Shown here: positions 2,806 to 2,871 of the stretch, one piece after another | How positions within the stretch are numbered: the first letter of the stretch is position 1 | Layout of the letters: every line of letters starts with the position of its first letter | IMG/VR virus record: IMGVR_UViG_3300009081_000012 | Span: 12,982 to 76,981 of that record | Reading direction: 5' to 3' (one strand) | Length of the DNA: 64,000 bases | DNA from: a virus | The notes under the pieces: generated by a model | The model's database searches: none | Seen by the model: the letters and a program-made list of their open reading frames with translations, nothing else | Told to the model about the DNA's origin: nothing | Program-made: the position numbers and the translations under genes

Positions 2806-2871
2806 TGTTACTGACGTTTCGGCCCTCCATAGGCCTTATTCATCAGGGATGCGGTAACAGCACCCGACGCC
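2806..2871 (-). ncRNA. Type III hammerhead ribozyme
   Basis: GGCGUC^ stem I GGGUGC-UGUUACC-GCAUCC, core CUGAUGA, AUAA insert, stem II GGCC-UAUGGAG-GGCC, GAAA, CGUC closing stem III; loop I UGUUAC pairs with 3' GUAACA; predicted cut between 2866 and 2865. Confidence 0.85.

What the first reader, a model, noticed from the sequence alone, without database searches (positions are those of the whole stretch)
2806..2871. Type III hammerhead ribozyme with a 4-nt core insertion and a loop I-3' tail pseudoknot
Seen: the complete core (GUC, CUGAUGA, GAAA), three stems and a 6-bp UGUUAC/GUAACA tertiary pairing, with an atypical AUAA insert between CUGAUGA and stem II. Cleavage would leave a 5'-OH about 90 nt upstream of the ATG at 2774. 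Known: insertions at this position are tolerated in some natural variants.
Basis: partly seen in the sequence, partly recalled or inferred. Interest (0 to 1): 0.7.

Follow-up and report, generated by a model that had tools for sequence, protein, structure and literature searches.

The report
Phage hammerhead ribozyme with bulged core
This is a genuine self-cutting RNA of a known kind (a type III hammerhead ribozyme) between two small phage genes. It carries four extra bases at a core position where published examples have at most one or two. The proposed pseudoknot is probably a coincidence, and cutting is untested.

Summary
The motif is real and lies on the minus strand at 2873-2811. It has GUC (cut after C2866), a 6-bp stem I, CUGAUGA, AUAA, a 5-bp stem II, GAAA and a stem III of up to 7 bp.

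Rfam gives only 23.6 bits (cut-off 48.5), and the phage's own relatives lack the element. Pattern scans of IMG/VR recovered 18 other distinct type III hammerheads with the same build:
- Their stems covary: 12 of 16 pairs show compensatory changes, and 0 of 500 shuffles reach the observed values.
- A model built without the window's sequence hits it at 65.6 bits (E about 7e-20).

Membership in this phage hammerhead family is therefore secure.

Most family members have one extra base (usually U) between A9 and G10.1. This one has four, and one member (L099) has a 16-nt hairpin insert there. Published alignments report at most 1-2 nt at this junction.

The loop I / 3' tail pairing (UGUUAC/GUAACA) exists, but:
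- it occurs only in this member;
- it has about a 1% chance rate per member;
- it cannot form together with stem III.

Loops 1 and 2 instead fit the classical loop-loop docking motifs.

Cleavage is untested, and no RNA data were available. Earlier notes of this scan report other phage hammerheads with inserts at the same junction.

The parts
2867..2873 (-). Stem III, 5' strand (UUGGCGU); U2867 is U16.1
   Evidence: Sequence. Pairs with 2817-2811. Descriptor hit with 7 pairs. Helix covaries in the family.
2866..2866 (-). Cleavage-site nucleotide C17 of the GUC triplet; predicted scissile bond between 2866 and 2865
   Evidence: Position fixed by alignment to RF00008 and to the family model R2. 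Cleavage itself was not tested.
2847..2865 (-). Stem I hairpin: GGGUGC / loop 1 UGUUACC / GCAUCC
   Evidence: Sequence. All 6 pairs covary in the family and 100% of cells are paired. Loop 1 fits the UNmYN motif of natural type III hammerheads (PMC2632901). The same loop occurs in L098, L099, L100 and L102.
2840..2846 (-). Conserved core CUGAUGA (C3-A9)
   Evidence: Sequence. The core is CUGAnGA in all 19 family sequences; the only variable base is N7, which is C in one member.
2836..2839 (-). AUAA insert between A9 and G10.1
   Evidence: Sequence. The family model aligns it as 3 extra bases beyond the family's usual single extra base. Insert lengths in the family: 0 nt (3 members), 1 nt (14), 4 nt (this one), 16 nt (L099).
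2821..2835 (-). Stem II hairpin: GGCCU / loop 2 AUGGA / GGGCC
   Evidence: Sequence. The 15-nt hairpin is identical in L155. Loop 2 fits RNnA with n = 3 (PMC2632901). Helix covaries.
2811..2820 (-). GAA (G12-A14), then the stem III 3' strand ACGUCAG (A2817 = A15.1)
   Evidence: Sequence. GAAAC is invariant in the family.
2806..2811 (-). GUAACA, complementary to loop 1 UGUUAC (2859-2854); judged not part of the active ribozyme
   Evidence: The complementarity is real. It is absent from all other members, and its chance rate is about 1% per member.
2866..2886 (-). Alternative upstream hairpin (GACGUUAA / loop / UUGGCGUC) that sequesters the stem III 5' strand and C17. After cleavage it would be the flush 3'-terminal hairpin of the upstream fragment.
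   Evidence: ViennaRNA, -6.7 kcal/mol. Not conserved in other members.
2909..3340 (-). Upstream ORF, 143 aa, Cys-rich, no homologue found; stop codon TAA at 2911-2909, 42 nt before the cleavage-site C
2565..2774 (-). Downstream ORF, 69 aa, with its own Shine-Dalgarno GGGAG at 2787-2783; it would carry a 91-nt leader after cleavage

Best explanation
The element at 2873-2811 (minus strand) is a genuine member of a family of type III hammerhead ribozymes. Members of this family sit between small genes of diverse phages and prophages.

What is inferred rather than shown:
- When the operon is transcribed, the RNA folds into the three-helix junction and cuts itself after C2866.
- The mRNA of the upstream 143-aa gene then ends in a 2',3'-cyclic phosphate.
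- The mRNA of the downstream 69-aa gene starts with a 5'-OH, directly at the stem I hairpin, 91 nt before its ATG.
- Stems I and II are held together by the classical loop 1 / loop 2 docking (a U-N4-Y-N heptaloop against an R-N3-A pentaloop), not by the proposed pseudoknot.
- The four extra bases AUAA bulge out between A9 and the G10.1-C11.1 pair. Most family members already carry one extra base at this junction, and one carries a 16-nt hairpin.
- After cutting, both products can refold into terminal hairpins: 2886-2866 on the 5' product, and 2865-2847 plus 2846-2811 on the 3' product. This would disfavour religation and may protect the new ends.

Shown here: the sequence features, family membership and covariation of the family's helices.
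For: 1. All conserved core bases and three helices are present. RF00008 aligns full length at 23.6 bits, E 4.3e-4 per contig.
2. Pattern scans of IMG/VR found 18 other distinct sequences with the same architecture. The helices covary:
   - 98.1% of cells are paired, against 69.8% in shuffles.
   - 12 of 16 pairs have changes on both sides.
   - 82 compensatory cells against 21 expected; 0 of 500 shuffles reach this.
   - Slid controls give 34-47% paired.
3. The leave-one-out model R2 hits the window at 65.6 bits, E about 7e-20, with every pair standard. The same kind of model gives no hit in 2.4 Mb of the phage's TerL relatives.
4. Insert lengths at the same junction in the family are 0, 1 (14 members), 4 and 16 nt. 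L099 differs from L102 by the 16-nt hairpin insert plus a compensatory A-U to G-C change in stem II.
5. Loops 1 and 2 match the UNmYN and RNnA motifs, which 16 of 27 natural hammerheads share (PMC2632901).
6. Context fits. The element is intergenic, on the strand of both flanking genes, between a stop codon and the next ribosome-binding site. Two near-complete relatives of this phage carry type II hammerheads, and one carries a pistol ribozyme, in similar spacers.
7. Family members occur in cultured phages directly before annotated genes.
Against: - Cleavage was not tested and no RNA sequencing run holds this DNA.
- A 4-nt insert next to CUGAnGA exceeds what published alignments contain (PMC10085705). 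It sits at the A9/G10.1 metal-binding site (established knowledge), so activity may be reduced or lost.
- Even a single extra A there moderately lowers the rate in CChMVd (PMC3705267).
- No close homologue of this particular copy exists, so selection on it after the insertion cannot be shown. Strain-level contigs are identical.
- Nearest-neighbour energies favour a three-hairpin fold over the hammerhead fold by about 9.6 kcal/mol. Two control hammerheads show similar gaps of 4.6 and 9.8 kcal/mol, so this does not discriminate.
- The family was collected with patterns that contain the core and was then filtered for pairing. The alignment was also fitted to the model. Both inflate the percentage of paired cells.
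Confidence: 0.68

Rival explanations
1. Crippled relic. The element descends from the phage type III hammerhead family, but the 4-nt insertion at the A9/G10.1 junction has abolished useful self-cleavage, possibly together with the competing hairpins. What remains is a structured spacer made of three hairpins.
For: - Inserts longer than 2 nt at this junction are absent from published alignments.
- Only 2 of 19 family sequences have more than 1 nt there.
- The upstream hairpin pairs with all 8 bases of the stem III 5' strand plus C17. Most other members lack such complete pairing.
- CUGAUG pairs with CGUCAG in the minimum-energy fold.
- This copy has lost the family's frequent arrangement in which the start codon follows GAAAC directly.
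Against: - Every core base and all 16 helix pairs are intact. That is not expected after long neutral decay, although a recent insertion would look the same.
- L099 keeps a compensatory stem II change alongside a much larger insert.
- Energy gaps of the same size occur in canonical control hammerheads.
Confidence: 0.22
2. Gated hammerhead. The ribozyme is active only conditionally. Three competing pairings keep it off until something shifts the fold: the upstream hairpin with the stem III 5' strand, the core with CGUCAG, and loop 1 with the GUAACA tail. Alternatively, they lock the products after cleavage.
For: - Three mutually exclusive partners exist for ACGUCAG and two for UUGGCGU.
- The 6-nt loop/tail complement has only about a 1% chance rate.
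- The upstream hairpin ends exactly at the cleavage-site C.
- An earlier first-stage note of this scan read the same stretch as a possible switch.
Against: - None of these alternative pairings is conserved in other members.
- The shared ACGU core is self-complementary, so such pairings arise easily.
- With 19 members, one 1% event has roughly a 17% chance.
- No ligand, protein or signal is suggested by any result.
Confidence: 0.08
3. Chance resemblance. Three unrelated GC-rich hairpins in a spacer happen to carry the hammerhead core words.
For: - RF00008 is below its gathering score, and in an all-family scan of the window the hit has E 1.5.
- A scan of about 250,000 windows would produce hundreds of relaxed chance matches (extrapolated).
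Against: - The leave-one-out family model scores 65.6 bits.
- Loop 1 is identical to four other distinct members, and the stem II hairpin is identical to L155.
- Zero hits in 2.4 Mb of related phage DNA.
- None of 400,000 random contexts reached the observed stem strengths.
Confidence: 0.01

Closest known systems
Type III hammerhead ribozymes of bacteria, prophages and phages (Rfam RF00008, clan CL00010; De la Pena and Garcia-Robles 2010 as summarised in PMC6155905; Perreault et al. 2011, PMC3088659)
   Same: - Same permutation, with stem III open.
- Same core (CUGAUGA, GAAA, A15.1-U16.1, GUC site).
- Intergenic position in phage operons.
- Several copies per element in some members (L152, L162, the Caulobacter genomes).
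   Different: - Four bases lie between A9 and G10.1, where published alignments have 0-2 (PMC10085705).
- Rfam's model scores it at 23.6 bits against a cut-off of 48.5, and even an insert-free member of the family reaches only 43.5 bits.
CChMVd (+) hammerhead with the extra A10 between A9 and G10.1, and its loop 1 / loop 2 docking motif (PMC3705267; PMC2632901)
   Same: - Type III.
- Heptaloop 1 starting UG with a pyrimidine at position 6.
- Loop 2 begins AUG and ends in A (AUGACA there, AUGGA here).
- Extra nucleotide(s) at the same junction.
   Different: - One extra base there, four here.
- The viroid ribozyme processes rolling-circle replication intermediates, whereas this one lies in a phage mRNA.
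Type II hammerheads with a loop I / 3' tail pseudoknot (Perreault et al. 2011; examples in this phage's relatives, L095 1501-1567)
   Same: A hairpin loop on stem I is complementary to a 3' tail over 6 nt.
   Different: - In type II the tail leaves stem II, which lies beside stem I, so the pseudoknot clamps stems I and II together.
- Here the tail leaves stem III, at the far end of the molecule, and the pairing is not conserved in the family.
Pseudoknot hammerhead (PDB 8YDC; PMC11300833) and non-circular hammerhead permutations (PMC10085705)
   Same: These are natural hammerheads that depart from the classical three-hairpin layout around the CUGAnGA block.
   Different: In those, helix II is replaced or the blocks are reordered. 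Here the order and all three helices are canonical, and only a short bulge is added.

Membership tests
Hammerhead ribozyme (class) | Conserved core: C3 U4 G5 A6 N7 G8 A9, G12 A13 A14, the A15.1-U16.1 pair, and H17 not G | tested here: met
   CUGAUGA 2846-2840, GAA 2820-2818, A2817-U2867, C2866.
Hammerhead ribozyme (class) | Three helices I, II and III meeting at the core, supported by covariation | tested here: met
   Helices of 6, 5 and 7 bp in this copy. In the family, 12 of 16 pairs have compensatory changes and 0 of 500 shuffles reach the observed values. Caveat: the set was filtered for pairing and the alignment was fitted to the model.
Hammerhead ribozyme (class) | CUGAnGA directly adjoins stems I and II (at most 1-2 inserted bases in published alignments, PMC10085705). 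This is an empirical regularity, not a mechanistic definition. | tested here: not met
   4 nt (AUAA 2839-2836) lie before G10.1. One other family member (L099) has 16 nt there.
Hammerhead ribozyme (class) | [quoted passage not shown] | tested here: inconclusive
   Loop 1 UGUUACC fits UNmYN. Loop 2 AUGGA fits RNnA with n = 3, whereas 2 or 4 is usual. No loop 1 / loop 2 Watson-Crick pseudoknot exists beyond 2 bp (by inspection). The proposed loop/tail pseudoknot is not conserved.
Hammerhead ribozyme (class) | Site-specific self-cleavage giving a 2',3'-cyclic phosphate and a 5'-OH | not testable with these tools
   No RNA run holds the stretch. An in vitro assay is needed.
Rfam RF00008 Hammerhead_3 | Score at or above the gathering cut-off of 48.5 bits | tested here: not met
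   23.6 bits. The insert-free family member L098 also falls short, at 43.5 bits.
Phage type III hammerhead family defined here (models R1, R2) | Full-length match to a covariance model built without the candidate | tested here: met
   65.6 bits, E about 7e-20, model positions 1-63, no non-standard pair. Calibration was shortened, so the E-value is rough.
Phage type III hammerhead family defined here (models R1, R2) | Lies between the stop codon of one gene and the start of the next, on their strand | tested here: met
   Stop codon at 2911-2909, ribozyme at 2873-2811, ATG at 2774. Other members. Cultured phages.
Phage type III hammerhead family defined here (models R1, R2) | Frequent (12 of 19) but not universal: the start codon lies 1-3 nt after GAAAC, with the loop 2 GGAGG acting as the Shine-Dalgarno | tested here: not met
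   No start codon follows GAAAC here. The next gene starts 41 nt further on, with its own GGGAG.
Type II hammerhead with loop I / tail pseudoknot | Open stem II, GAAA upstream of a stem III hairpin, and a tail after stem II that pairs with loop I | tested here: not met
   The upstream hairpin 2886-2866 is preceded by AUG, not GAA. RF02276 gives no hit on the contig.

The most novel reading that the evidence does not exclude
The A9/G10.1 junction of this phage hammerhead family may be a natural insertion site that stays catalytically competent with 4 to 16 extra bases. In this copy, the insert together with the competing pairings could turn a constitutive ribozyme into a slowed or gated one that times the separation of two early transcripts. 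The competing pairings are the upstream hairpin, the core with CGUCAG, and loop 1 with the tail.
Probability: 0.12. Interest if true: 0.6.

Novelty: new variant of a known kind. Interest (0 to 1): 0.4.

Why it matters
- If it cleaves, it widens the known tolerance of the hammerhead core at the A9/G10.1 junction. That junction is a divalent metal site, and the paper I read (PMC10085705) treats it as fixed to within one or two bases.
- A tolerant junction would be a natural place to insert sequence when engineering ribozymes.
- Rfam's type III model misses a sizeable phage family. Members score 23-44 bits against a cut-off of 48.5, so phage hammerheads are under-annotated.
- The family context points to a testable role for phage hammerheads, which is still an open question (PMC6155905). 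Many members hold the next gene's Shine-Dalgarno and start codon inside the ribozyme.

Tried and rejected
- Rfam at gathering thresholds: only a tRNA.
- Phage database, blastn of 2400-3400: no match.
- Upstream 143-aa protein: no relative in IMG/VR, and only itself among 5.8 billion proteins.
- The 189-aa protein downstream: no relative in IMG/VR.
- First IMG/VR pattern, which fixed a 4-nt insert and a GGCC stem II: only coding look-alikes and one unrelated canonical type I hammerhead.
- The metagenome scan, which required AUAA plus CGUC...GAAACG: six chance hits without structure. This spent the only metagenome scan.
- DNA of window 1-4200 against five large relatives: no synteny.
- RF00008, RF00163, RF02276 and my model R1 over 47 TerL relatives: no type III member. 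Only two type II hammerheads turned up, in G001 and G002.
- Sequencing runs: no RNA holder is listed.
- DNA contigs of four runs are identical across the ribozyme, so there is no microdiversity to use. A diverged relative replaces or lacks 2767-3335, but its contig could not be read.
- Reading the element as a type II hammerhead, or as another block permutation: rejected, because the bases before the upstream hairpin are AUG rather than GAA.
- Folding energies as a test for or against the hammerhead fold: rejected as uninformative after controls.
- Search of Perreault et al.'s supplementary files for the family's conserved words: nothing found.
- A weak R2 hit at window 4742-4817 (12 bits) lies inside an ORF and lacks proper stems, so I treat it as chance.

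Full report
**What is there.** On the minus strand, the spacer between a 143-aa ORF (2909-3340, stop TAA 2911-2909) and a 69-aa ORF (ATG 2774) holds a complete type III hammerhead layout. Its parts are:
- Stem III 5' strand, 2873-2867.
- Cleavage-site C2866, within the triplet GUC.
- Stem I, GGGUGC/GCAUCC, closed by loop 1 UGUUACC (2865-2847).
- Core CUGAUGA, 2846-2840.
- Four extra bases, AUAA, 2839-2836.
- Stem II, GGCCU/GGGCC, closed by loop 2 AUGGA (2835-2821).
- GAA, 2820-2818.
- Stem III 3' strand, ACGUCAG, 2817-2811.

The complement GUAACA (2811-2806) to loop 1 is also there.

**Is it more than chance?**
- Rfam at curated thresholds reports no ribozyme.
- With permissive thresholds, Hammerhead_3 aligns full length at 23.6 bits against a cut-off of 48.5. 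That is E 4.3e-4 for the 77-kb viral contig when only this family is asked, but E 1.5 when all 4227 families are asked.
- A descriptor of my own, allowing 0-4 inserted bases and stems of 4 bp or more, finds only this site in the contig.
- The descriptor is met in 1 of 300 dinucleotide shuffles.
- Under a Markov model it is expected about 1.4e-3 times per genome, and none of 400,000 trials reached the observed stem strengths.
- About 2.4 Mb of related phage DNA gave no RF00008 hit.

Taken alone, this would still allow a chance origin across a scan of a quarter of a million windows.

**Relatives of the phage.**
- The window is part of an IMG/VR contig estimated to be 28% complete.
- Its large terminase finds many relatives, some of about 235 kb.
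- These relatives lack the region, and the flanking proteins are orphans.
- Contigs from several sediment, soil and wetland runs carry the identical ribozyme. A diverged relative replaces or lacks 2767-3335.
- Two near-complete relatives carry type II hammerheads between a stop codon and the next ribosome-binding site. Each has one extra base after A9.
- One of those relatives also has a strong pistol ribozyme 470 nt further on.
- This phage group therefore does use self-cleaving ribozymes in such spacers.

**The family.** A pattern fixing GUC, a 6-bp stem I, the loop UGUUACC and CUGAUGA returned six IMG/VR loci.
- Five of these six loci are well-formed type III hammerheads with different stem sequences.
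- A second pattern through the conserved loop 2 / stem II / GAAAC block added more.
- In all there are 19 distinct sequences including the window's.
- They share a 6-bp stem I, a loop 1 of the form U-N-N-N-(N)-C-C, CUGAUGA, a 5-bp stem II ending in a U-G pair, a loop 2 that in most members ends in GGA, and GAAAC.
- Aligned to a covariance model, 98.1% of cells pair, against 69.8% in shuffles and 34-47% in slid controls.
- 12 of 16 pairs show changes on both sides, and 82 cells are compensatory against 21 expected. None of 500 shuffles reaches any of these values.

Caveats: the set was found with patterns that contain the core and was then filtered for pairing. The alignment is fitted to the model.

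The decisive test is leave-one-out.
- A model built from the 18 other sequences hits the window at 2874-2809 with 65.6 bits, E about 7e-20, full length and with no non-standard pair.
- The companion model R1, which includes the window's copy, gives no hit at E 0.01 or better in 2.4 Mb of the phage's TerL relatives.
- Membership in this family is secure. A chance origin is excluded for practical purposes.

**The insert.**
- Between A9 and G10.1 the family has no extra base in 3 members and one in 14 members (mostly U, also A, C or G). It has four in the window's copy and sixteen in L099.
- L099 is otherwise almost the same ribozyme as L102. Its insert is a neat hairpin (GGGC, six-base loop, GCCC) plus AU.
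- Its stem II differs from L102's by a compensatory A-U to G-C change.
- The literature I could read knows single extra bases here. The extra A10 of CChMVd lowers the rate moderately, and a U raises it (PMC3705267).
- The window's copy is thus an unusual variant at a junction that this family already treats loosely. Whether four bulged bases leave enough activity cannot be told from sequence.

**The pseudoknot.**
- In type II hammerheads a tail that leaves stem II pairs with loop I and clamps stems I and II together (PMC3088659). The relative L095 is an example.
- Here the tail leaves stem III, 0-1 nt after its last pair. That point is far from loop I in solved structures.
- Four other distinct members carry the identical loop UGUUACC, and their tails show only 3-4 nt of complementarity. 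No other member reaches 5 nt.
- A complement of 6 nt or more occurs in about 1% of random 34-nt genomic segments.
- Loop 1 is therefore conserved as sequence, not by covariation with a tail.
- It fits the UNmYN motif, and loop 2 fits the RNnA motif. These motifs mediate loop-loop docking in most natural type III hammerheads (PMC2632901).
- I reject the pseudoknot as part of the active fold. It may be coincidence, or a feature of the cleaved product.

**Competing folds.**
- The minimum-energy fold of the spacer is three adjacent hairpins: 2886-2866, 2865-2847 and 2846-2811.
- The first hairpin hides the stem III 5' strand and C17. The third pairs CUGAUG with CGUCAG.
- This fold is about 9.6 kcal/mol better than the hammerhead fold in the nearest-neighbour model.
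- Two control hammerheads show gaps of 4.6 and 9.8 kcal/mol, so the gap does not argue against activity.
- The boundary between the first two hairpins is exactly the predicted cleavage site. Both products could therefore refold with flush terminal hairpins. This is inference.
- Full sequestration of the stem III 5' strand is not seen in most other members.

**Verdict.** This is a real type III hammerhead of a phage family, with an uncommon 4-nt bulge in the core.
- It most likely still cleaves after C2866 (about two chances in three).
- Otherwise it is a recently crippled copy.
- The loop/tail pseudoknot is not supported.
- The kind is known and the variant is new in degree.
- Earlier notes of this scan, on other genomes, describe phage hammerheads with one extra U or with whole hairpins at the same junction. 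My family data agree with those notes, but they were not used as evidence.

**Seen on the way.**
- In 12 of 19 family members the next ORF starts 1-3 nt after GAAAC, inside stem III, with the loop 2 GGAGG as its Shine-Dalgarno.
- GenBank annotation agrees in three cultured phages.
- I found no description of this in the papers searched.
- The window's copy does not share the arrangement.

Noticed in passing
L100, L102, L099, L142, L143, L144, L148, L150, L151, L152 (two copies), L157; L165 687-749, L166 482-544, L167 642-702: In 12 of 19 family members the downstream ORF (58-171 aa) starts 1-3 nt after GAAAC, inside the stem III 3' strand. The conserved loop 2 / stem II GGAGG lies 9-11 nt upstream as the only Shine-Dalgarno. 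Annotated CDS starts agree in Pseudomonas phage YMC11/06/C171_PPU_BP, Mycobacterium phage jiawei and Caulobacter phage S2B. The ribozyme thus contains the translation start region of the next gene, which suggests a link between cleavage and translation. I found no description of this in the papers searched.
   Followed up: partly
L099 9590-9666 (-), compared with L102 3385-3446 (+): Two nearly identical type III hammerheads differ by a 16-nt insert (a GGGC / 6-nt loop / GCCC hairpin plus AU) between A9 and G10.1, and by a compensatory A-U to G-C change in stem II. This is a natural pair for testing insert tolerance.
   Followed up: partly
L095 1501-1567 and 1972-2040; L096 1501-1568: Near-complete relatives of this phage (about 235 kb) carry type II hammerheads just below Rfam's cut-off (36.6 and 30.7 bits against 37). 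Each has one extra base after A9. One relative also has a pistol ribozyme at 71.3 bits, 470 nt downstream, so the two ribozymes flank small Cys-rich genes. The L096 copy has C instead of U at 16.1.
   Followed up: partly
L162 1740-1800, 2153-2214, 2965-3026; L152 5295-5357, 5582-5643; L163 and L164 (Caulobacter genomes); L100 6355-6417 plus 7867-7937: Family members cluster. There are three copies within 1.3 kb in L162, two within 350 nt in L152, and two each in two Caulobacter metagenome-assembled genomes. In L100 a type III copy lies 1.5 kb before a type II hammerhead that passes Rfam's cut-off (44.1 bits).
   Followed up: no
L098 6083-6142: An insert-free, canonical-looking member of the family scores 43.5 bits on RF00008, still under the 48.5 cut-off. 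Standard Rfam annotation would therefore miss this whole phage family.
   Followed up: no
window 1-3700 and contig bases before the window (L006): The minus-strand block of small genes that holds the ribozyme has 40% G+C, and up to 50% further upstream in the contig. The rest of the window has 31-34%. In a diverged relative seen in soil and wetland runs, 2767-3335 (the ribozyme plus the 143-aa ORF) is replaced or absent. This looks like a mosaic, exchangeable early region.
   Followed up: partly
L157, L162 (second and third copies), L152 (second copy), L155: the 30-40 nt before the ribozyme: Several family members have a strong GC-rich hairpin (-15 to -26 kcal/mol) ending a few bases before the cleavage site. 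After cutting, it would sit at the 3' end of the upstream RNA.
   Followed up: no
window 13966-14038 (+): A tRNA gene (65.5 bits), the only Rfam hit of the window at curated thresholds.
   Followed up: no
window 4742-4817 (+): A weak hit of the family model (12 bits, E 0.22) inside the ORF 4686-5066. It has CUGAUGA and GAAAC but no proper stems, so I judged it chance.
   Followed up: yes
L004 8112-8165 (+): A canonical type I hammerhead in an unrelated IMG/VR contig, picked up by the first pattern scan. I used it only as a folding control.
   Followed up: no
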